A stretch of DNA of 64,000 nucleotides from Myxococcota bacterium (GTDB taxonomy: Bacteria; Myxococcota_A; Polyangia; Nannocystales; Nannocystaceae), in NCBI GenBank assembly GCA_039028615.1, contig JBCCHT010000006.1, positions 160,001 to 224,000 of the forward strand, read 5' to 3'. The translations under genes and the position numbers were made by a program. Shown here one piece after another: positions 31,478-43,031 of the stretch. Below the pieces are notes generated by a model that worked only from the letters and a program-made list of their open reading frames with translations, searched no databases and was not told the DNA's origin. Positions within the stretch are counted from its first letter, which is position 1. Every line of letters begins with the position of its first letter.

Positions 31478-34400
31478 ATGCAGTACAGGCGGCTCGCCAT
31501 GCTTCGCCGTCGCAGCGCCGTCGCCCTGCTCCTGACCCAAGCCCTCGCGTGCCAACCGGTACAGACGTCGGGCGGGGGGGCAGAACCCGCCTCCCCCGAC
31601 ACGCCCTTCGTCGCCTCACCCGGCCGTAGTGAAGGTCTGGTCTTCCCGCCCGCCTCGGAGGCCAACCCTCGCCGGAAGCTGCCTCGCGGCATCGCCAAGG
31701 CCGAAGCCGAGGCCAGCGACCGGAGCACCCGCGTCGAGTGGCCCGAGCTCGACGGCGCCGGCAAGTTCGAAATCGTCGGTCAGACGCTGTACATCCACTT
31801 CAATCGCTCGATTAAGCCGCCGCCCAAAGACGAGCCCGCTCTCACCATCGAGCCGGCCGTCGACGGCGAGATCTCGTGGTCGAATCCCTGGGTCCTGGCC
31901 TTTCGCGCCGAGGCTCCGTTTGATCCGGAGACCGAATATACGGTGGCGCTGGGCGACCTCCACGACGTCGAAGGCGAGCCGGCGGCGGAAGGGTGGACGG
32001 GCGTGTTCACGGCGGAACCGCGAGTGCACATCGCGGGCAAGGTCATCAGCTACCTGCCCGAGGCCGGCGCCCCCCAAATGGTGACGGTCCGACCGCACGA
32101 GGGCCCGCAGGTCGGCCCCGCAGTGGCGCCCGAGGTGCTCTTCGATCAGCCGGTGACCTTGGCGCAGGCCAAGACCCAGCTCGAAGGCGAGGTCGACGGC
32201 AAGCCCTGCGAAATCACCCTGGCTCACCCGGAAAAGGACCTCTTCGACGGCGCCGCCGTCGACCGGGAGCACGTGGTGATCGCCCGCCCCGCCAAGGCGC
32301 TCGATGCCGGCTCGTCGCTGGTGCTGCGCGTGAGCGAGCCCGACGGCTCCGACGATGTCGAGTTCGCGTACGAGGTCGCCGAGCCCCTCGCCTTCGAGAA
32401 GATCGAGTGCGAGGAGGACTACTGGCGCGACGACACCTGCACGTGGAAGGACCAGGTCCTGTCCACGCAAGGCGAGCGCGTCAAGGTTCGCTTCAACAAC
32501 CCCATCGGCACCAGCGACAAGGCCCTCGGGCGCAAGCTGAAGGTGAGCCCTCGGGTCGACGAGCTACGGATCCAGCGCGACCCCTGGGCCAGCGACGGCA
32601 CGGTCTGGATCTCGGGTCGCTTCAAGCCCTCGACCACCTACCGGGTCGAGCTCGGCCGGGTCAAAGACCGCTTCGGCTCGCGCAGCGCCGCGCCGCTGAA
32701 GTTCGAGGTCGACGTGGCCCCCATGGCGTCGAGCGTCTCGATGCCCGAGGGTCAGCAGGTCCTCGACGAGGCCGCCAGCCGCACCTTTGCCATCACCACC
32801 CGCAACGTGAAGGAAGCCCGCCTCGACCTGTGGGAGGTCGAGCCCAACGCACGGGCGTGGACCGAGGCGCGTCAGCGCGTCAGCGCCCGCGAGCGCCCCA
32901 TCTCCGCCCCGGACCTGAGCATCCCCGTGCGCCCTCGAAGCCGACGCGACAAGCCGGTCACCACCCGCCTCGACCTGCTCGACTCGTTGGCGCCCGGCAA
33001 GACCTACCTCGCGCGCCTCGAGCTCGGCCACGCCGCATTCGGAGCACCGCCGCCCGCCTATCCCGAGTGGGCGATGGCGGCTCGGCCCTCGACCGCTCTC
33101 ATCACCCCCCACGACGACCGAGCGCTGGCCGTGCACGTGCACGAAGGCACCGACAAGACGCTAATCCAGGTCGCGCGGCTCGGCGACGGCAGTCCGGTCC
33201 GCGGCGCGCAGGTGCTGGTCGACGGGACCCGGCAGCCGGGGATCAAGACCAACGCCGATGGTGTCGCCGTGCTGAAGCGACCGCTCGACGCGGACACCGC
33301 TCGACGCGTGCACGTGGTCGAGGTCGAGTCCGACGATCGCCGCGCCGTGCTGGCCCTGGGTGTCGGCTCGCTCGACGAGCGTGAGCTCGCCCCGGAGCTG
33401 GCCGGCACGCCCGCCCCGCTCGAGGATATCCGCGCCCTGCTGTTCAGCGACCGCGGCGTGTACCGCCCCGGCGCCACCGTGGAGCTCAAGGGCATCGTCC
33501 AGTTCCGCAAGAAGGGCCGCCTCCACCCCGCCCCCGCCATGCCGGTCGGGATGCGCATCCACTCCCCCACGGGCAAGGAGGTCTTCGCCGAAGCCAGCGT
33601 GACCTCGACCATGGGCAGCACGGTGGACAGCTTCTCGGTCCCCGCCAACGCCGAGATCGGCCGCTACCGCGTCGAGCTGGTCGCCCCGCTCCGCGCCAAC
33701 GCGGTCATCGCCCGCTACGGCATACAGGTCGCCGAGTTCGAGCCCCCGCGCTTCACCGTCGACGTGGAGACCAAGGCGGCCGAGAGCGGCAAAAAGCTCG
33801 AGGGCACCGTCAACGGCCGCTACCTGTTCGGCGCGGTGATGGAAGACGCGCCCGTGACCTGGACGCTCCGCCGCAGCCCCGCCGCCATGCCCAAGGGTCC
33901 GCTGCCGAGCAAGGGCTTCGTGTTCCGCCCCGTCCGCAGCTACTGGGAGGACGACGACACCGAGGCGTGGGTCCGCGTGGGTGAAGGCCAGCTCGACGCT
34001 CGCGGCCTGCTCGCGGTGACCCCCGCCGTGGAGCTGCCCGCCGACCAGGGCCCGCAGCGCTTCGTGCTCGAGGCCGAGGTCACCGACGAGTCTCACCGTG
34101 CCATCGCCAGCCGCAGCTCGGTGGTCATGCACCCCTCCGAGCGCTACGCCGGCATCAAGCTCGCCGAGCGCTGGCTCGACGTCGGCACTGCGATTCCCAT
34201 GGAAGCCGGCGTCGTCGACCAGAGCGGCGCCACGGTGAGCGGCGTGCCCGTGGAGCTGAGGCTCGAGCACCTCGAGTGGAAGCGCGTGCGCAAGCCCGGC
34301 CCCGGCGGCGCCGCCAGCCAGCGCTGGCACCAGGTCTCCGAAGAGGTCGCGCGCTGCACCACCAAGGGCGCCGACACCTCGGCGTGCTCGCTGGTGCCCA

Positions 34401-37216
34401 AGCGCTCGGGCACCTACCGCGTCAGCGCGTGGCTCGACGGGCGCCGAGGCGGCTCGATGCGCGTCTGGGCCTGGGGCCGCGGCTCCACCACCGCCGCGCC
34501 GTCCCCCGGGCGGCGGCTCGAGATCATCGCCGACCGCAGCGGCTACGAGCCCGGCGACACGGCCGAGCTGATGGTCCGCAACCCCTTCCCCGCGGCCACC
34601 GCGATCCTCACCGTGGAGCAGGGCGGCATCCTGCACCACGAGACGCGGCAGGTGACCGAGTCCGCGGTGCGCTTCGACGTGAAGCTGGGCAACGAGCATG
34701 CCCCGCACGCCCACGCCACCGTGACCCTGCTGCCGCGAGACGCCAAGGACGACGCCCGCGTCGACTGGAAGATCGGCGCGGTGCGGTTGCCCGTCGACCT
34801 GAGCGACAACCGGCTCGACGTCACCATCGCCAGCGACCAAGACCGCTACGCCCCCGGTGACTCGGTAGACATCGTGATCGACGTCAGCCAGTCCGGCACC
34901 GCCATCGAGGGGGCCGAGGTCGCGCTGGCCGTGGTGGACGAAGGCGTCCTGCGCATGACCAACTTCCACGCGCCCGATCCCGTCTCCGCCCTCTACCCGG
35001 GGCAGGGCCTCAACTTCCGCGTGGACGACAGCCGTCGCCTGCTCGCCGAGCAGCTCGGCCGCAGCCATGTCGCGGGTGACGGCAGCGGAGCCGGAAGCCA
35101 CAGCGTGGTCTCCACCCGCAAGAACTTCGTCAAGACCGCCCTGTGGAAGCCGCAGCTGCGGACCGACGCGGACGGCCGGGCCCACGCTCGCTTCACCTTG
35201 CCCGACAACCTCACCCGCTTCCGCATGATGGCGGTGGTGGTCGACACCGAGGGTCGCGGTGGCGTCGACGAGGACGACTTCGAGGTCCAAAAGCCCCTCA
35301 TGGCCATCCCCGCCGTGCCGCGCTTCGCCCTCATCGGCGACAAGTTCGAGGCCGCCGTGCTGGTGCACAACAACCAGGAGACGACCCAGACCGCGGCGGT
35401 GTCCGAGGGCGGGATGACCAAGACCGTCGAGATCGCCGCGGGCGGCCGGGCGCGCGTGCCCTTCGAGCTGTCCTTCTCCAAGGGCGGCACGAAGCTCCTG
35501 CACTTCACCGTCGCCGACGCCGAGGGCACGGTCCGCGACGCCGTCCAGGTGAAGGTGCCCGTCCAGGCCCCCGGCATCGACGAGCGCCCCAATCTGCACG
35601 GCACCTTCCTCGGGAGCCAGGAGGTCACCCTCCGGGTCCCCGAGAAGGTCTTCGCCGACGCGACCGGGGACGACTTCGTCACCGTCACCATGGGCGAGAA
35701 CCTGTGGCCGGAGCTGGGCACTCGCCTGCAGTACCTGCTCGGCTACCCCCACGGCTGCGTCGAGCAGACCACCTCGAGCACGCTGCCGCTGCTGGCCGCG
35801 CGCGAGATTCTGCCGCGCCTGGGCATGACCCCCTACGACGACGACGAGCTGCGCAAGATGATCGAAGCGGGCGTCGTGCGACTGTCCACCATGCGGACCA
35901 GCGCGGGCGGCCTCGCCTACTGGCCGGGCGGACACGAGCCCAACCCCTTCGGCACCGCCTACGCCACCCTGGCCATCGCCCGCGCCCAGGAGCTGGGCAT
36001 CGAGGCCCCCGAGGGCATGGTCGACGGCATGCGCGACTACATGCTGAGCATGCTCGAGAGCGACTCGTTGCCCCATGGCTACGGGGTCGAGGTCCGTGCC
36101 TCCTTGGCGCTGGCGCTCGCCGAGCTCGAGGCCCTGCCGCCCGAGCGCGCCGACTCGCTGTGGGACACCGTGCCCGCGCAAGGAGCCTTCGGCGTCGGCA
36201 CCCTGGCCCTCGCCCTGTCGACGCTGCCCGGACAAGAGGACCGCGTCGAGAGCCTGCTCGACCAGCTCGAGGCCTCGTTCGGTGACGACGGGACCCTCCG
36301 CTCCGAGCGCAAGGACGACGACTTCCTCTACTTCGGTTCCGATCGTCGCACCACGGCGCAGGCCTTGATCGCCTTGCACCGCCTGCGCCCGCAGTCGCGG
36401 GTCGTGCCCCACCTCGTGGGCAACCTCGTCCGCATGACGCCGGGCTACACCACCCAGAGCACCGCGTACTCGCTGCTCGCCCTGGCCGAGAAGATCCAGG
36501 ACGAGGACGGCACCGCGTCTCGTCAGCGGGCCCTGCTCGACGGCGAGGTGCTCACCCCCGAGGTCTCGGGCGCCATGGCGCTGGGCCCCAACATCCGTCG
36601 CTATCGGATCCCGCTGTCGAAGCTGCGCGGGCGCTCGATGACCCTGACCCTGCAGAGCGAGTCCACCCGTGCCCAGGCCTTCATGGTCTCGGCCCGCTGG
36701 CGCCGAGCCGGCGCGGGTACGGAGACGCTCGCCGAGACCACCAGCGAGCACGGCCCCGACCTGTACCGCGTGTACACCGATGCCAAGGGGCGCTCCATCG
36801 ACCCCACCGCCATCGAGCCGGGACAGGTCCTGCGGGTGGTGTTGCTCGCCCGCATGCCGCGGGACCTGCCGAGTGAGCGACGCGGCTACCTGGCCCTGAC
36901 CGATCGGATCCCCGCCGGATTCGAAGCCATGCAACCCGACCTGTGGACGGTGGCCACCGTGCCCGAGCTCGACGACTCGCACCCGCTGTACGACCACCTG
37001 CGGTGGCGCGGAGGCTCAGCGGACCACCTCGAGCTGCGGGACGACCGAGCCCACTTCTACTTCGACCGTGTCTGGGGACAGTGGGCGCATGCCACCTACC
37101 TCATCCGCGCGACCACGCCGGGCATCTTCGCCACGCCGCCGGCCATGGCGGAGCTGATGTACGAGCCGGACAGCGCTGGCTACACCGACGCTCGCAACTT
37201 CACCGTCGTCCAGTAA
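31478..37216 (+). CDS. Bacterial alpha-2-macroglobulin (lipoprotein)
   Basis: Lipobox ALAC. SDRGVYRPG, LAVVDEGVL, LPDNLTRFR, thioester motif YPHGCVEQT, DRIPAGFE, ATTPG...AELMY. Confidence 0.95.
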   Translation: MQYRRLAMLRRRSAVALLLTQALACQPVQTSGGGAEPASPDTPFVASPGRSEGLVFPPASEANPRRKLPRGIAKAEAEASDRSTRVEWPELDGAGKFEIVGQTLYIHFNRSIKPPPKDEPALTIEPAVDGEISWSNPWVLAFRAEAPFDPETEYTVALGDLHDVEGEPAAEGWTGVFTAEPRVHIAGKVISYLPEAGAPQMVTVRPHEGPQVGPAVAPEVLFDQPVTLAQAKTQLEGEVDGKPCEITLAHPEKDLFDGAAVDREHVVIARPAKALDAGSSLVLRVSEPDGSDDVEFAYEVAEPLAFEKIECEEDYWRDDTCTWKDQVLSTQGERVKVRFNNPIGTSDKALGRKLKVSPRVDELRIQRDPWASDGTVWISGRFKPSTTYRVELGRVKDRFGSRSAAPLKFEVDVAPMASSVSMPEGQQVLDEAASRTFAITTRNVKEARLDLWEVEPNARAWTEARQRVSARERPISAPDLSIPVRPRSRRDKPVTTRLDLLDSLAPGKTYLARLELGHAAFGAPPPAYPEWAMAARPSTALITPHDDRALAVHVHEGTDKTLIQVARLGDGSPVRGAQVLVDGTRQPGIKTNADGVAVLKRPLDADTARRVHVVEVESDDRRAVLALGVGSLDERELAPELAGTPAPLEDIRALLFSDRGVYRPGATVELKGIVQFRKKGRLHPAPAMPVGMRIHSPTGKEVFAEASVTSTMGSTVDSFSVPANAEIGRYRVELVAPLRANAVIARYGIQVAEFEPPRFTVDVETKAAESGKKLEGTVNGRYLFGAVMEDAPVTWTLRRSPAAMPKGPLPSKGFVFRPVRSYWEDDDTEAWVRVGEGQLDARGLLAVTPAVELPADQGPQRFVLEAEVTDESHRAIASRSSVVMHPSERYAGIKLAERWLDVGTAIPMEAGVVDQSGATVSGVPVELRLEHLEWKRVRKPGPGGAASQRWHQVSEEVARCTTKGADTSACSLVPKRSGTYRVSAWLDGRRGGSMRVWAWGRGSTTAAPSPGRRLEIIADRSGYEPGDTAELMVRNPFPAATAILTVEQGGILHHETRQVTESAVRFDVKLGNEHAPHAHATVTLLPRDAKDDARVDWKIGAVRLPVDLSDNRLDVTIASDQDRYAPGDSVDIVIDVSQSGTAIEGAEVALAVVDEGVLRMTNFHAPDPVSALYPGQGLNFRVDDSRRLLAEQLGRSHVAGDGSGAGSHSVVSTRKNFVKTALWKPQLRTDADGRAHARFTLPDNLTRFRMMAVVVDTEGRGGVDEDDFEVQKPLMAIPAVPRFALIGDKFEAAVLVHNNQETTQTAAVSEGGMTKTVEIAAGGRARVPFELSFSKGGTKLLHFTVADAEGTVRDAVQVKVPVQAPGIDERPNLHGTFLGSQEVTLRVPEKVFADATGDDFVTVTMGENLWPELGTRLQYLLGYPHGCVEQTTSSTLPLLAAREILPRLGMTPYDDDELRKMIEAGVVRLSTMRTSAGGLAYWPGGHEPNPFGTAYATLAIARAQELGIEAPEGMVDGMRDYMLSMLESDSLPHGYGVEVRASLALALAELEALPPERADSLWDTVPAQGAFGVGTLALALSTLPGQEDRVESLLDQLEASFGDDGTLRSERKDDDFLYFGSDRRTTAQALIALHRLRPQSRVVPHLVGNLVRMTPGYTTQSTAYSLLALAEKIQDEDGTASRQRALLDGEVLTPEVSGAMALGPNIRRYRIPLSKLRGRSMTLTLQSESTRAQAFMVSARWRRAGAGTETLAETTSEHGPDLYRVYTDAKGRSIDPTAIEPGQVLRVVLLARMPRDLPSERRGYLALTDRIPAGFEAMQPDLWTVATVPELDDSHPLYDHLRWRGGSADHLELRDDRAHFYFDRVWGQWAHATYLIRATTPGIFATPPAMAELMYEPDSAGYTDARNFTVVQ

Positions 37217-37248
37217 GCCCCGCTCGACCAAAAACCGGAGACCACGTC

Positions 37249-39696
37249 ATGGACCGCCGATCCCCGACCCCCCCGAAGCGCACTCGACCTCGCCGCCGCC
37301 GTCGGATCGTCGTCGTCGCGCTCGGCCTGCTGGTGACCGTGGCGTGGATCTCCTGGGCGGCCATGTGGTCGTGGCTCCGCAGCGAGGTCGACCGCCCGCG
37401 CGAGTCGCTGAACGACGACTGGTACTCCGGGCACCGGGTCCTCGACCGCGAGGGCCGGCTGCTCCGCGAGCTGCCCGGTGAAGAGGGTCGACGCGGGCAG
37501 CCGCTCGCGCTCGACGAGGTCGGACCGCGACTCATCGCCGCCACCGTGGTCAGCGAGGACGCGCGCTTCTTCGAGCACGAGGGCGTCGACGGCGGGGCCA
37601 TCGTGCGGGCGGTGGGACAGAACCTTCGGCATCGGCGCGTCGTCTCGGGCGCGAGCACCATCACCCAGCAGCTCGTCAAACTCCTGGATACCCGCGGTCA
37701 GCCCGGCGTCCGCGATCCGTGGGTCAAGCTGCGCGAGGCGGCCCGGGCTGCCAACCTCGACGAGGCGCTCGCCAAAGAAGAAATCCTCGAAGCCTATCTC
37801 AATCGCCTTCCCTACGGCCATGGGCTCGTGGGGCCCGAGGCTGCCGCACGAGGCTACTTCGGCGTGGCCGCCCGCGACCTGTCGTGGAGTCAGGCTGCGT
37901 TCCTCGCCGTGCTGCCGCGCGCCCCCTCGTTCCTCGATCCCTATCGTCACCACGACCGCGTCACCTTGCGGCAGCACGCCCTGCTGCACGCTCTGCACAA
38001 CGCCGGTGAAATCGATGAGCCGCAGCTGCACCGTGCTCTGGCGGAGGCCGTCAAACCGCGTGAGCTCGAGCGTCCTTTTTCCGCTCCGCACCTGGTGGAG
38101 ACCCTGCGCCAGCGCGGTCAGCTGAGCTCGGGCACCACCACGCGCACGACCCTCGACCTGCCGTTGCAGCAGGACGTCGAGGGGCTCGTTCGGACCCACA
38201 TGGCCCGCATGGTCGAGCACGGCGCGGGCGATGCCGCCGTGCTGGTCGTCGACAACGCCACCGCCGAAGTGCTCGCCTACGTCGGCTCAGCCGACTTCCA
38301 TGATCCCACCATCGCCGGCCAGGTCGACATGGTCGTCGCCCCGCGCCAGCCCGGCTCCACGCTCAAGCCCTTCGTCTACGCGCTGGCCTTCGAGCAGGGC
38401 CACTCGCCCGTCGAGCTTTTGGCCGACGTCCCCACCACCTTCCGCGAGGGGCCGGGGCACGTCTACGCCCCCCGCAACTACCACGGCCAATTCACCGGTC
38501 CCGTCTCCGCTCGCGTGGCCTTGGCGACCAGCCTCAACGTGCCCGCCGTGCGCCTCGCCGCCGATCTACCCCACGGCGAGCTGCTCGAGACGCTCCAGAG
38601 TCTGGGTCTGCACAGCCTGACCGAGCCCGCCGAGCACTACGGCCTCGCATTGGCCTTGGGCAGCGGCGAAGTCGGCCTCCGCGAGCTGACCGAGGCCTAT
38701 GTCGCGCTGGCGCATGGCGGTGAACATCGACCCCTGCGCACCATCCTCGACGCCTCGGAAGGCCCCCGCACGCAGGTCTTCGAGCCCTACGCCGCCGCGG
38801 CCATCACCGAGGCGCTGTCGGACCCGATGGCCCGCATTCGCCTGTTGCCCGCCGGCCATCGCCCCTTCGACATCGGCTTTCCCGTCGCGCTCAAGACCGG
38901 CACCAGCTCGGGCTACCGCGACGCCTGGACGGTCGGCTTCACCCACGAGCGTACCGTGGCGGTGTGGATCGGCAACGCCGATGCCACGGCCATGAACGAG
39001 GTCACGGGAGCGGGCGGAGCGGGTCCTTTGTTCGCCGACGTCATGCGGCGCGCCATGGAGACCGTGCCCACTCGCGAGCCGCTGTGGGACTCTTCGCTGC
39101 TGACGACGGTGGAGGTCTGCCCGTTCTCCGGCCAGCGCCCGGGGCCCGCCTGTCCGCATGCGGTTCAGCGCAAGCTTGCGCATGAGCACATTCCCCATGA
39201 GGCGTGCACGATGCATGTGCACGCGACGCCTCGCCCCTCGACCTCGCGGCCTTTCACCTGCGACCCCGAAGGGCATGCCTCCATCGCGGTGCTGCCCGAG
39301 GAGTACAACGGCTGGCTCGACGAGCGGCCGGTCGGGGCGCCGGGCGAGGATGCCAACGGCACGCCGTGGCTGGCTCGTGCGCGGGTTCCGGGCTGCGCCG
39401 AGCAGACCGATCGTCCGACGATGGCGATCGTGGAGCCCGTGAATGGGGCGGTGGTGTGGTCGGGGCGCGATGGTGATGTGGTCGAGTTGCGGGCGGAGCT
39501 TCAGGGGACGACTCGGGAGCCGGACACGGTTGTTTCGGAGGTCGAGTTTGTGGCCGATGGTGAGGTGGTGGCTCGGAGTGCTTGGCCGTATCGGGCGTTG
39601 GTGGAGTTGGGGCCTGGGGATCACCGGGTGGTGGCGCGGCCTCGTCGATCGCGGTCGGGCATGCCTACGCAGGGCGCTCGCTTTAGTGTTCGGTGA
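37249..39696 (+). CDS. pbpC: Penicillin-binding protein 1C (transglycosylase/transpeptidase)
   Basis: SEDARFFEHEGVD, SGASTITQQL, RQPGSTLKP (SxxK), SLN, KTGTS. Directly downstream of alpha-2-macroglobulin. GGAG precedes ATG 37249. Confidence 0.93.
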   Translation: MDRRSPTPPKRTRPRRRRRIVVVALGLLVTVAWISWAAMWSWLRSEVDRPRESLNDDWYSGHRVLDREGRLLRELPGEEGRRGQPLALDEVGPRLIAATVVSEDARFFEHEGVDGGAIVRAVGQNLRHRRVVSGASTITQQLVKLLDTRGQPGVRDPWVKLREAARAANLDEALAKEEILEAYLNRLPYGHGLVGPEAAARGYFGVAARDLSWSQAAFLAVLPRAPSFLDPYRHHDRVTLRQHALLHALHNAGEIDEPQLHRALAEAVKPRELERPFSAPHLVETLRQRGQLSSGTTTRTTLDLPLQQDVEGLVRTHMARMVEHGAGDAAVLVVDNATAEVLAYVGSADFHDPTIAGQVDMVVAPRQPGSTLKPFVYALAFEQGHSPVELLADVPTTFREGPGHVYAPRNYHGQFTGPVSARVALATSLNVPAVRLAADLPHGELLETLQSLGLHSLTEPAEHYGLALALGSGEVGLRELTEAYVALAHGGEHRPLRTILDASEGPRTQVFEPYAAAAITEALSDPMARIRLLPAGHRPFDIGFPVALKTGTSSGYRDAWTVGFTHERTVAVWIGNADATAMNEVTGAGGAGPLFADVMRRAMETVPTREPLWDSSLLTTVEVCPFSGQRPGPACPHAVQRKLAHEHIPHEACTMHVHATPRPSTSRPFTCDPEGHASIAVLPEEYNGWLDERPVGAPGEDANGTPWLARARVPGCAEQTDRPTMAIVEPVNGAVVWSGRDGDVVELRAELQGTTREPDTVVSEVEFVADGEVVARSAWPYRALVELGPGDHRVVARPRRSRSGMPTQGARFSVR

Positions 39697-39707
39697 TCGA
39701 GTTTAGT

Positions 39708-40465
39708 CCGCGTCATCTCGCGTGCGTACATCCGGTAGGCTCTGCTCTATCGATGGCTGGGAGTGCTTCGAGGCCGCCTGCACGTGTTTCGAGCGAAGGG
39801 CTCGCCTGTTGACGGCTGGATCCCTCCCCGGACGTGCTCGTCGGTCGTTGCACCCGGCTGTTTCGCGACCACATTGGGGAACGACTCCGCGCGACCGGGC
39901 CCCCTCCATCCTACGCGGCTTCGCTTCAGCCCTCCCCCCGCGTCGTCTCCCGTCCGTACAGCGATCAGTTCCTGCTCTATCGATTGCTAGGAATGCTCCG
40001 CATTGGCTTGCGAATGTTCGAGCGAAGGGCTCGCCTGTTGACGGCTGGACCCCTCCCCGGACGTGCTCGTCGGTCGTTGCACCCGGGTGCTTCGCGGCGG
40101 TACTGGGGAACGACTCCGCGCGACCGGGCCCCCTCCATCCTACGCGGCTTCGCTTCAGCCCTCCCCCTGCAGCACCTCCCGTGCGTGCACTCAGCAGTTC
40201 CTGCTCTATCGATGGCCAGGAGTGCTTCGCATTGGCTCGCGGAGTGTTCGAGCGAAGGGCTCGCCTGTTGACGGCTGGACCCCTCCCCGGACGTGCTCGT
40301 CGGTCGTTGCACTCGGCTGCTTCGCGGCCACTTGGGGAACGACTCCGCGCGACCGGGCCCCCTCGATCCTACGCGGCTTCGCTTCAGCCCTCCCCCCGCG
40401 TCGTCTCCCGTGCGAGCACACAACGAACCCAGCTCTGTCGAAGGCCAGGAGCCCTTCGCGTTGGC
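39708..40465 (+). repeat. Tandem array of a ~230-bp non-coding structured repeat (about 3.3 units)
   Basis: Anchor CTGCTCTATCGAT at 39742, 39972, 40201, with a degenerate copy at 40430. Core CGAAGGGCTCGCCTGTTGACGGCTGGA at 39794, 40023, 40253. Period 229-230 bp. Confidence 0.95.
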
Positions 40466-40686
40466 GCCGGCGGTCGGCAGAGGCTGTGGCTTGCAGCCAC
40501 TCTCCAGCTGTTCGTAGCCCGTTCTGCAGCCTGGCGGTTTGGAACGTTTGGGCGTTCCGTCTACGGCTACTGCGGCGAAAGTGATTTCCCTGGCATCAGG
40601 CCGAGTCACGTTGATCCCGGAGTTTTGGCCAGTGTTTCCTCGGCCGCATGGTGGGTCGTATCCTGTGGCCGCAGAGTTGTCTCTCG

Positions 40687-41169
40687 ATGAGTTCGTCGAC
40701 CTCCAAGCTCTACCTCGTGCCACCTCTGGAGCCCGGGAGTTTCGACTGGCAGATCTGGTTGACCGAAGACGAGGCGAACGATCCCTACGAGAAATCCGCT
40801 CATGTGAACGACGGCACCCGTTATCTCGTCGTTCTCGAGGGCATGGCACTGGCCGAGTGCACGGCCCACCACCTCTCGGAGGTGTACTTGTGGAGCGATG
40901 GTTCGGGGGACCACGACAACTACGTAGTCCTTCGCATCGAGGTCGTGCTGGACTCCGAGCGCTGGCAGACGCTGCCGTGGGGCCACCGTTCCCCGGGCGA
41001 GCTGTTCTACGGGTGGAGTCACTACGAGGACGAAATGATCCGCGACGACCCCGAAGGCATCGGTTGGAAAATGGCGAGCTGGGAAGAAGTCGAGCAAGCA
41101 CTCGCGGCCGGAGAATGCAGGCTGGAGTACTTCGACGGCCACCGACACCCGCCAAAGCCCCAAGCGTGA
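40687..41169 (+). CDS. Orphan hypothetical protein (160 aa, acidic, Trp-rich) between the inverted repeat arrays
   Basis: Protein-like composition (MSSSTSKLYLVPPLEPGSFDWQIWL...), unlike the Arg/Pro-rich shadow ORFs. Start could be 40648 or 40687. Confidence 0.7.
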   Translation: MSSSTSKLYLVPPLEPGSFDWQIWLTEDEANDPYEKSAHVNDGTRYLVVLEGMALAECTAHHLSEVYLWSDGSGDHDNYVVLRIEVVLDSERWQTLPWGHRSPGELFYGWSHYEDEMIRDDPEGIGWKMASWEEVEQALAAGECRLEYFDGHRHPPKPQA

Positions 41170-41265
41170 ACATCAGCTGGACAGGACCACATCGTTCCTC
41201 ATGGTAAGAACTCCCCTGTCACAACTCGTTACACAGACCTTCTCGCCCAGCCCCAAACTACGCTT

Positions 41266-41745
41266 CACCTCGAAGCACTCCCCCCCCCATCGATAGAGCG
41301 GGGCCTGCTGTATGCGCGCACGGGAGATGATGCGCGGGGAGGGCTGAAGCGAAGCCGCGTAGGATGGAGGGGGCCCGGTCGCGCGGAGTCGTTCCCCAAT
41401 GTGGTCGCGAAGCAGCCGGGTATAACTACCGACGAGCACGTCCGGGGAGGGATCCAGCCGTCAACAGGCGAGCCCTTCGTTCGAACACTCGGTAAGCCAC
41501 CTCGAAGCACTCCCCCCCATCGATAGAGCAGGGCCCACTGGCGGTACGCACGGGAGACGACGCACGGGGAGGGCTGAAGCGAAGCCGCGTAGGATGGAGG
41601 GGGCCCGGTCGCGCGGAGTCGTTCCCCAAAGCGGTCGCGAAGCACCCCGCTGCAACTACCGACGAGCACGTCCGGGGAGGGATCCAGCCGTCAACAGGCG
41701 AGCCCTTCGCTCGAACATTCCGCCAGCCCCCTCCAAGCACTCCCG
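41266..41745 (-). repeat. Inverted array of the same ~230-bp repeat (about 2.1 units)
   Basis: ATCGATAGAGC at 41289 and 41519; GGCGAGCCCTTCG ending at 41479 and 41709. These are reverse complements of the 39.7-40.4 kb unit, period 230. Confidence 0.95.
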
Positions 41746-41813
41746 ACCAACGCCAAAGCCCCCTCGGCAGCTCCCAAGGTGCGCCGTCCCCCCAGCCTCC
41801 CGCCGAGACGAAT

Positions 41814-43031
41814 TCACCCCACCCGCGGCGAATACCGAGCAAAGTACTGCCGCATGAGCCACCGCCGAAACCAAACATTGATCGCCGGAAAGTCGATCTT
41901 CAAAGCCCCATAGACCACCAACGACCGCCCCCCCAAACTAACCCCATACGCAAACCGAGGCCGCAACACATGAGGCCGCAACACCGGCACCTCCCCCCGA
42001 TTCTTCGGCGCATGCTCAGCCAAGATCGCAACATTGCGCGCCACCACCTTCGCCTGCCAAAGGCACTCGATGGCCCGCTGCATCGTCGGCCAGACCCCAT
42101 CTCCGCCCACCACTCGCACCGCATCCCCGCACGCGAAGATCTCCGGATGCGTAGGCTCCGGCGTAGGAAAGCACTGCAACGTCGGCCCCACCGCCAGCCA
42201 ACCATCGTCGGTCCGCGGCAGCCCCAAGTGCTCGAGAATCGGCGCCGGCCGAATCCCCCCCGCCCAGAAGGTCAACGCCGCATCGAGCGATTCCACCGTC
42301 TCCTCGTGACGCAGTTGCACCGACGACGGCCCGGCTTCGACCAGTCGCGTCTCCAAGCGCAGATCGACCCCCTGCCCCACCAACGCCGAGGCCGCCTTCC
42401 GCCCCACCCCGGCCGCGAGCTCGGGCAGTAGCCGGGCCCCAGCACTCACCAACGTGACCGCCGGCGCCCGCCACCCCTCGGGTCGCCGCCGCCGCAGCAA
42501 GGCCAGCTCGCCCGCCAGCTCCACGCCAGAGATGCCACCGCCCACCACCACCATCCGCGGCTCGGCCGATGCATCCCCCTCGGACCCCAGCGTCTCCGCC
42601 AGTCGCGGCCGCGCCTCGTCGATCTCCGCCTCGAACTTGTGCCCGAGCATGTGCTCGGCCCCGGGCATCCCCGGCGGGGGCGTGACCACGGAACCCAAGG
42701 CCACGACCACGAAGCGCGCCGCGATCCGTCGCCCCGACCCCAGCTCGACGACCTTGCGCTCGGGATCGAAGGACACGACCTCGTCGCAGACGAAGTCGGT
42801 GCCCGGCAGCGAGCGCACGAAGTCCTCGGTGGGCAGGATGCTCTGCTCGTCCGTGAGCACGCCGCACAGCCGCTCGTGCACCAAGGGGATGTAGCCATGA
42901 CTGCGCTGCCGATCGACGACGGTGATCTTCAGCGGTTTGGACAGGCGGCGCTGGATCTGGAGCACGACCTCGATGCCGGCGAAGCTCGCCCCCAGCACCA
43001 ATAAGTCGGTGCGCTCAGGTGCCGAAGACAT
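41814..43031 (-). CDS. NAD(P)/FAD-dependent oxidoreductase (NDH-2/Pyr_redox_2-like)
   Basis: LVLGASFAG, VVALGS, VVGGGISGVELAGEL, FWAGG, IFACGD. Start at ATG 43031. Confidence 0.88.
   Translation of the reverse strand: MSSAPERTDLLVLGASFAGIEVVLQIQRRLSKPLKITVVDRQRSHGYIPLVHERLCGVLTDEQSILPTEDFVRSLPGTDFVCDEVVSFDPERKVVELGSGRRIAARFVVVALGSVVTPPPGMPGAEHMLGHKFEAEIDEARPRLAETLGSEGDASAEPRMVVVGGGISGVELAGELALLRRRRPEGWRAPAVTLVSAGARLLPELAAGVGRKAASALVGQGVDLRLETRLVEAGPSSVQLRHEETVESLDAALTFWAGGIRPAPILEHLGLPRTDDGWLAVGPTLQCFPTPEPTHPEIFACGDAVRVVGGDGVWPTMQRAIECLWQAKVVARNVAILAEHAPKNRGEVPVLRPHVLRPRFAYGVSLGGRSLVVYGALKIDFPAINVWFRRWLMRQYFARYSPRVG

What the first reader, a model, noticed from the sequence alone, without database searches (positions are those of the whole stretch)
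39000..42600. Candidate undescribed system: inverted structured-repeat arrays with a mirror-symmetric, strand-specific C-depletion halo in the flanking genes
Seen in sequence: pbpC (+) and the NDH-2-like gene (-) converge on two oppositely oriented arrays of one ~230-bp repeat that enclose a single orphan gene. Both genes stay in frame but lose third-position C on their coding strand near the arrays, gaining T and G. On each side the C-poor, G/T-rich strand is the one reading the repeat in the same orientation, so the bias flips with repeat orientation. By eye the inner spacers show the same polarity (40470-40686 T-rich; 41170-41265 A/C-rich on +). Inference: the repeat directs a local, strand-specific mutational process. 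One option is recurrent ssDNA exposure after nicking by a trans-acting HUH/RAYT-like enzyme, or an R-loop, followed by C deamination and error-prone repair giving C>T and C>G, resembling kataegis. No candidate enzyme is encoded next to the arrays.
Basis: partly seen in the sequence, partly recalled or inferred. Interest (0 to 1): 0.88.

Follow-up and report, generated by a model that had tools for sequence, protein, structure and literature searches.

The report
Hairpin repeat with one-strand mutation halo
Nearly every copy of a long hairpin-forming repeat in this marine bacterium's genome is surrounded by 0.5-1.5 kb of ordinary DNA in which one fixed strand has lost much of its cytosine, a repeat-anchored footprint that I found no description of and whose cause is still unidentified.

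Summary
The ~230-bp unit contains a ~125-nt covarying hairpin (12 of 24 pairs compensatory), with 105 hits at 50 loci. Two further hairpin families and the genome's two RAYT-like genes carry the same halo. On the strand fixed by repeat orientation, third-position C falls from ~0.55 to 0.21. The halo reaches ~500 bp upstream and ~1.5 kb downstream. Ordinary convergent gene ends (1,722 pairs) and repeat-free orthologs of both genes lack it, while secY shows it in relatives where the repeat follows. It is independent of replication direction and of flanking-gene direction. Proteins stay conserved. Nearby tandem duplications are enriched, and their C>T and A>G rates are twice the complementary rates. 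Best reading: a hairpin-defined, strand-specific local exposure or re-synthesis of DNA by an unidentified factor. The mechanism is inferred, not shown.

The parts
37249..39696 (+). pbpC-like transglycosylase/transpeptidase gene, downstream of an alpha-2-macroglobulin gene; its 3' end carries the halo
   Evidence: Pfam Transgly and Transpeptidase; C3 gradient 0.66 to 0.10
39200..39765 (+). Left upstream halo (+ strand poor in C and A, rich in G and T)
   Evidence: 39400-39696: A .12 C .21 G .45 T .22
39766..40435 (+). Left array: three ~230-bp family-A units, each with a ~125-nt interrupted hairpin
40436..40686 (+). Left inner spacer (downstream halo of the + array), T-rich
40687..41169 (+). 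Orphan 160-aa ORF, GC 62%; passenger with no family
   Evidence: no Pfam match; Atlas feature hits all under 0.9 and TM under 0.5
41170..41296 (-). Right inner spacer (downstream halo of the - array), A/C-rich on +
41297..41739 (-). Right array: two family-A units in inverted orientation
41740..42700 (-). Right upstream halo (- strand poor in C)
   Evidence: C3 0.13-0.26 over the last ~290 codons
41814..42998 (-). NDH-2-like pyridine nucleotide-disulphide oxidoreductase gene carrying the halo
   Evidence: Pfam Pyr_redox_2

Best explanation
The unit is a REP-like, long-hairpin intergenic repeat that marks one DNA strand. Around each copy that strand is repeatedly put through an error-prone state for ~0.5 kb upstream and ~1.5 kb downstream. 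Most likely the hairpin is recognised by an unidentified factor that nicks or primes there; strand-displacement synthesis then runs downstream, and the exposed strand takes C>T and A>G deamination-type changes, with C>G fixed at GC-preferring silent sites. The same local re-copying would generate the tandem arrays. Purifying selection keeps the proteins, so the change shows at silent sites. Shown here: hairpin conservation, an orientation-locked asymmetric halo, independence from fork and gene direction, the spectrum asymmetry and duplication enrichment. Inferred: ssDNA exposure, nicking or priming, and a dedicated factor.
For: Upstream flank keto-positive in 84 of 91 scored elements of families A, B and C. 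Same strength whichever replichore strand the repeat lies on (36 of 38 against 34 of 37, p=0.52). Genes on the opposite strand gain C and lose G on their coding strand (NNR A 0.155 to 0.39). Asymmetric reach over 18 isolated loci: upstream 37, 21, 4 and downstream 33, 24, 22, 16, 12, 9, 6, 0 percent keto excess per 250 bp, as expected from 5'-to-3' displacement. Polarised silent C retained at 16 of 54 proximal against 83 of 92 distal sites. Reciprocal secY test: C3 0.18, 0.26 and 0.29 where the repeat follows, against 0.35-0.76 in 25 other orthologs. In 14 nearby non-coding tandem arrays C>T is 2.0x G>A (p=0.002) and A>G is 2.0x T>C (p=0.008); distant arrays show no significant asymmetry. 14 of 31 non-coding tandem arrays lie within 900 bp of an element, a zone holding 3% of non-coding DNA. 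The two HUH/RAYT-like genes of this genome sit in the same kind of halo, and TnpA-REP cleaves ssDNA over more than 400 nt on both sides of a REP (PMC3333891 section 20).
Against: No cognate enzyme was found. RAYT does not co-occur; DUF559 and PD-(D/E)XK Rpn were not found in G000; the G000 GIY-YIG locus profiled has no halo. Copies in G083, G084 and G077 have little or no halo (means 0.05, 0.02, 0.04), and G002 is weak (24 of 30 positive, mean 0.11). Only 3 of 22 RAYT loci of the family show strong mirror halos (p=0.10). The fourfold C-to-G shift is as large as the twofold C-to-T shift, more than spontaneous deamination alone predicts, yet C>G asymmetry in tandem arrays is not significant (p=0.10). 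Tandem-array counts are consensus-polarised and not independent. No reads or polymorphism data show ongoing mutation. 11 of 42 strongest halos have no assigned element.
Confidence: 0.5

Rival explanations
1. Polymerase stall and error-prone gap filling, with no dedicated nuclease. The hairpin, which has G-rich internal loops on the A/C-rich strand, blocks copying of that strand. The gap is filled by a low-fidelity host polymerase whose wobble errors make the new strand G/T-rich.
For: Explains the absence of a co-occurring enzyme. The ~1.5-kb downstream reach matches the gaps of up to 2 kb at E. coli RRS repeats (PMC10592627). Two DnaE genes are present. It predicts the same C>T and A>G asymmetry, plus C>G.
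Against: RRS acts only on the lagging template, whereas this halo ignores replichore. No consistent halo at the two E. coli RRS loci (only dusC's last ~75 codons are low). G004 has the strongest family-A halos but only one weak IMS-family match. It does not explain how the repeat spreads.
Confidence: 0.22
2. The genome's RAYT-like Y1 HUH enzymes nick near the repeats in trans.
For: GTAG lies at the hairpin foot on the A/C-rich strand in 70 of 93 near-full copies. Both RAYT-like genes lie in halos, and the genes flanking the C13 copy are the 2nd and 3rd most C3-poor of 2,664 controls. Strong halos also occur at RAYT loci L030 and L040.
Against: Homologue in 2 of 8 repeat-bearing against 32 of 65 other genomes. 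None in G002 (95% complete) or G004 (88%), which have halos; 10 weak matches in G084, which has none. The repeat does not flank the RAYT loci tested (best E 0.097 over 11 loci). CT is not depleted. 16 of 93 copies have a changed tag.
Confidence: 0.1
3. The element is itself transcribed and seeds an R-loop or an RNA-primed displacement that exposes the sense strand.
For: The polarity fits: the displaced non-template strand is the C-poor one. An invariant T-G pair lies on that strand (31 of 31). Most elements lie sense to the upstream gene (73 of 91).
Against: Halos are no weaker where the upstream gene points away (0.28 against 0.20), and they extend upstream of the element. No Rfam match. The two strands fold about equally well.
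Confidence: 0.1
4. Selection, not mutation: C-rich, G-poor Rho-loading sequence is favoured on the opposite strand to end antisense or read-through transcripts.
For: The opposite strand is C-rich and G-poor. The shift looks like a uniform penalty on C, about 5-6 fold at both twofold and fourfold sites.
Against: It reaches 1.5 kb and holds for every gene orientation. NNY C does not rise on the C-rich coding strand (0.85 against 0.84). The asymmetry is present in recent non-coding duplicates, and duplications are enriched.
Confidence: 0.08

Closest known systems
REP/BIME/REPIN elements with RAYT (TnpA-REP), and TIRtrons/TIRYT
   Same: Intergenic imperfect hairpin with GTAG at the foot of one strand; inverted pairs and tandem arrays; locus-level amplification; strand-defined action over hundreds of nt in vitro (PMC3333891; PMC3733652).
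   Different: The hairpin is ~125 nt in a ~230-bp unit, against 20-40 bp REPs (abstract of PMC3733652). It does not flank a RAYT gene and does not co-occur with one. CT is not depleted. No halo was reported in the passages read, and none is clear at E. coli rayT.
E. coli RRS (Replication Risk Sequences)
   Same: ~220-bp GC-rich structured repeat with a strand-specific effect that fades over up to 2 kb (PMC10592627).
   Different: RRS are two fixed copies acting only on the lagging template. Here 50 loci lie in either replichore orientation with equal halos. No mutational footprint appears in the RRS parts read.
Replication-associated keto skew and strand-displacement asymmetry (as in vertebrate mtDNA; recalled)
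   Same: C>T plus A>G excess on one strand, giving G/T enrichment.
   Different: Local, about tenfold stronger than the replichore skew here (fourfold G shift +0.34 against about +/-0.04), and set by a repeat rather than by an origin.
APOBEC/AID kataegis (recalled)
   Same: Strand-coordinated C>T and C>G that switches strand across a locus.
   Different: No TC preference, an A>G component, and no deaminase candidate near the elements.

Membership tests
REP/BIME-RAYT | GTAG/GTGG tetranucleotide at the 5' foot of a hairpin | tested here: met
   GTAG in 70 of 93 near-full family-A copies; 16 carry a variant. Families B and C show no such tag in their consensus.
REP/BIME-RAYT | The same repeat flanks a cognate RAYT gene | tested here: not met
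   Model R1 gives best E 0.097 over 11 Y1 loci, among them the C13 RAYT locus. Neither G000 RAYT locus is among the 50 repeat loci.
REP/BIME-RAYT | Co-occurrence of repeat and RAYT across genomes | tested here: not met
   2 of 8 against 32 of 65. Profile search of 5 of the 7 other repeat-bearing genomes: none in 3, marginal in 1, 10 weak in 1. Several are incomplete MAGs.
REP/BIME-RAYT | Short (20-40 bp) hairpin | tested here: not met
   The hairpin spans ~125 alignment columns.
REP/BIME-RAYT | ssDNA cleavage at C|T by the enzyme | not testable with these tools
   Indirect only: CT observed/expected 1.12 in halos against 0.85 elsewhere.
RRS | Effect only when the blocking strand is the lagging template | tested here: not met
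   36 of 38 against 34 of 37, p=0.52; the replichore was inferred from local third-position skew.
RRS | G-quadruplex that stalls polymerase and leaves RecA/SSB-coated gaps | not testable with these tools
   G-rich internal loops are visible on the A/C-rich strand; nothing more was tested.
APOBEC-type kataegis | TC-context preference | tested here: not met
Curated structured RNA families | Rfam match | tested here: not met
   0 matches at E<=1 over 39000-42600.
IS91/ISCR rolling-circle elements | Y2 transposase in the genome | tested here: inconclusive
   No PF04986 match, but the control genomes were also silent.

The most novel reading that the evidence does not exclude
Families A, B and C are non-autonomous targets of an undescribed hairpin-recognising nickase or primase that locally re-replicates one strand. 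This natural site-directed mutator biases 1-2 kb of flanking host DNA, amplifies neighbouring sequence and moves passenger genes held between tail-to-tail copies. Similar halos around unrelated hairpins in other bacteria would be the same class.
Probability: 0.3. Interest if true: 0.92.

Novelty: categorically new. Interest (0 to 1): 0.78.

Why it matters
Local mutation bias in bacteria is usually put down to replication direction or transcription. Here a third determinant, the orientation of a hairpin repeat, appears to override both, shifting silent sites 5-6 fold over 1-2 kb at about 70 loci of one genome. If it is mutational, it is a fossil record of an unrecognised strand-specific DNA transaction. 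It also gives a composition-only way to find such elements and their enzymes, and it confounds codon-usage and divergence analyses near repeats. How REP-like repeats act in vivo becomes testable, because the rival mechanisms predict opposite exposed strands.

Tried and rejected
Literature searches found no description of such a halo (listings only; subscription journals are mostly missing, and no supplements were read). Enzyme hunt: clustering of ORFs near elements gave no recurring nuclease in G000. In G002 many elements lie beside Rpn-like genes, but PDDEXK_2 was not found in G000 and is plentiful in G005, which lacks the repeat; the second Rpn-like family is in all 5 genomes searched and has no halo in G000. 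DUF559 was not found in G000. Of three GIY-YIG loci in G000, one was profiled and has no halo. Y2_Tnp was inconclusive. MutS, UDG and IMS are present in all 5 genomes compared and do not separate strong from weak halos. The 16 genes at unexplained halos are housekeeping or unknown. No plasmid match; a pattern scan of genome contigs gave 27 loci, which were not analysed. No RNA holder listed. Substitutions inside the repeat core lean to G loss on the sense strand (G>A 21 and G>C 15 columns, against C>T 12 and C>G 10), which is opposite to the halo and unexplained. Folding energy does not pick a strand. E. coli RRS and rayT loci were inconclusive. PMC5285347 gave no spectrum passages. Genes were called with my own codon model, which missed the C13 RAYT-like gene, so atypical genes may be missed elsewhere.
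Full report
Context. The window is G000:C6:160001-224000 of a 12.27-Mb, 94-contig, 68.3% GC genome, held by a marine metagenome run. That it is a myxobacterium is my inference from size, GC and gene content. Genes were called with my own codon model (9,465 genes).

The observation. Three + units and two - units, spaced 229-230 bp, enclose a 160-aa orphan between a pbpC-like and an NDH-2-like gene. Their last 120 codons have C3 0.16 and 0.14; 7 and 4 of 2,664 convergent control gene ends are as low, and the control mean is 0.51. Contigs of run X1 agree letter for letter across both halos, though X1 may be the source sample. In relative G001 the two genes abut, so arrays and orphan are an insertion.

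The repeat. A profile finds 105 hits at 50 loci, in a major and a minor subfamily. Over 31 chosen copies from three genomes, a ~125-nt interrupted hairpin has 96.5% of cells paired and 12 of 24 pairs compensatory; 0 of 500 shuffles reach this and slid controls pair 37-55%. The copies are related, so the shuffle count is not a probability. GTAG lies at the foot on the A/C-rich strand in 70 of 93 near-full copies. There is no Rfam match. De novo clustering finds two more hairpin families (B, 21 hits; C, 15 hits) with the same oriented halo and a CCTGY start on the G/T-rich strand. Four other multicopy intergenic families of 6-16 members, one of them tRNA-like, show no halo. All 31 mixed-orientation clusters in G000 are tail to tail; G004 has one head-to-head pair (L122). 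Most inverted pairs hold no called gene; the passengers seen are unrelated to each other.

The halo. Upstream, C3 on the repeat-sense strand is 0.21, 0.26, 0.40, 0.49 and 0.54 in 200-bp steps. At 18 isolated single-orientation loci it reaches ~500 bp upstream and ~1.5 kb downstream. It does not depend on replichore (36 of 38 against 34 of 37; elements with short flanks or weak local skew were dropped). It does not depend on gene direction: 17 of 18 where the upstream gene points away and 67 of 73 where it points in, and opposite-strand genes gain C and lose G. Fourfold C goes 0.59 to 0.22 and G 0.31 to 0.65; twofold NNY C goes 0.85 to 0.50; NNR A goes 0.144 to 0.076; there is no TC preference. 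Of 42 strongest halos in the genome, 31 lie at families A, B, C or the RAYT-like genes and 11 are unassigned.

Ortholog tests. Five orthologs each of pbpC and the NDH-2-like gene lack the 3' gradient; one NDH-2 ortholog, L017, is C3-poor throughout. Polarised silent C is retained at 16 of 54 proximal against 83 of 92 distal sites; the proximal changes are C>T 20 and C>G 18. Protein identity is not reduced, while silent identity is (0.48-0.54 against 0.64-0.65). Reciprocally, secY ends with C3 0.18, 0.26 and 0.29 where the repeat follows, against 0.35-0.76 in 25 others (34-codon bin; one partial ortholog dropped; one lacks downstream DNA). Family A occurs in 8 of 73 family genomes. Halos are strong in G004 (8 of 8), moderate in G002 (24 of 30), near zero in G083, G084 and G077, and mixed in G051.

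Mutation or selection. 14 of 31 non-coding tandem arrays lie within 900 bp of an element, against 3% expected. All 14 agree with the element's orientation, and within them C>T is twice G>A and A>G twice T>C; C>G against G>C is 1.7x and not significant. These counts are consensus-polarised and not independent. Together with the reach and the orientation independence, they favour a DNA-level process over selection for Rho sites, but no ongoing mutation was observed.

The agent. The only Y1-HUH genes found in G000 are two RAYT-like paralogs (313 aa, NHYH motif, 66% identical). Both lie in mirror halos, with their own short inverted motifs rather than family A. This links halos to an HUH locus. 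TnpA-REP cleaves over more than 400 nt either side of a BIME (PMC3333891: passages and section 20 read). But homologues occur in 2 of 8 repeat-bearing and 32 of 65 other genomes; none was found in G002 or G004, and only 3 of 22 RAYT loci have strong halos. Rpn, DUF559, GIY-YIG, Y2 and repair-gene repertoires gave no candidate.

Comparison with known systems. REP/RAYT (PMC6006769, passages; PMC3733652, passages and section 16) shares the tag and arrangement but fails on size, flanking and co-occurrence. RRS (PMC10592627, parts 1 and 3 of 6) shares size and reach but is lagging-strand specific. The mtDNA and kataegis comparisons are recalled, not read. Seven searches found no report of such a halo. 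Four earlier notes of this scan describe similar halos around other hairpins in other genomes; they are unchecked leads, not support.

Verdict. The footprint is real, repeat-anchored and strand-locked, and it is probably mutational (about 0.9 summed over the non-selection readings). Displacement by an unidentified hairpin-recognising factor is my leading mechanism (0.5), then stall with error-prone gap filling (0.22), RAYT (0.1), an element-derived R-loop (0.1) and selection (0.08). The repeat itself is REP-like; the label 'categorically new' refers to the halo.

Noticed in passing
G000:C13:40455-41396 (L011/L018) and G000:C8:231440-232339 (L212): Two RAYT/TIRYT-like genes, each inside a strong mirror halo and flanked by short inverted motifs; the same motif recurs beside RAYT locus L030 of another genus.
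   Followed up: partly
G000 families B (e.g. C7:60760-61778, C14:82539-83452) and C (e.g. C53:821-1546, C72:18549-19132): Two further long-hairpin repeat families with the same oriented halo and a similar foot, possibly one superfamily with family A.
   Followed up: partly
G000:C18:62629-63642: An ORF between inverted minor-family copies that my gene caller missed; by eye it resembles a macro-domain plus TIR/SEFIR defence-like protein (recalled, not scanned).
   Followed up: no
L102-L121 (G002): Elements cluster with multicopy Rpn-like nuclease genes, kinases and a recurring hypothetical gene in duplicated islands.
   Followed up: partly
L109 (G002) and L124 (G004): An inverted element pair at the same secY-adk site in two species, absent in G000, suggesting long vertical persistence.
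   Followed up: yes
G000:C11:155550-157000, C11:231316-231930, C83:5869-6501, C18:193090-193788: Strong halos without families A-C; some lie next to small hairpins, one just after a tRNA-like gene.
   Followed up: partly
L249 dusC 3' end and L250 lfhA 3' end (E. coli K-12): The last ~75 codons next to the RRS and to the rayT repeats are C3-poor (0.11 and 0.16); single loci, and lfhA is a pseudogene.
   Followed up: no
window 31499-39696: Alpha-2-macroglobulin gene followed by pbpC, an ordinary conserved pair.
   Followed up: no
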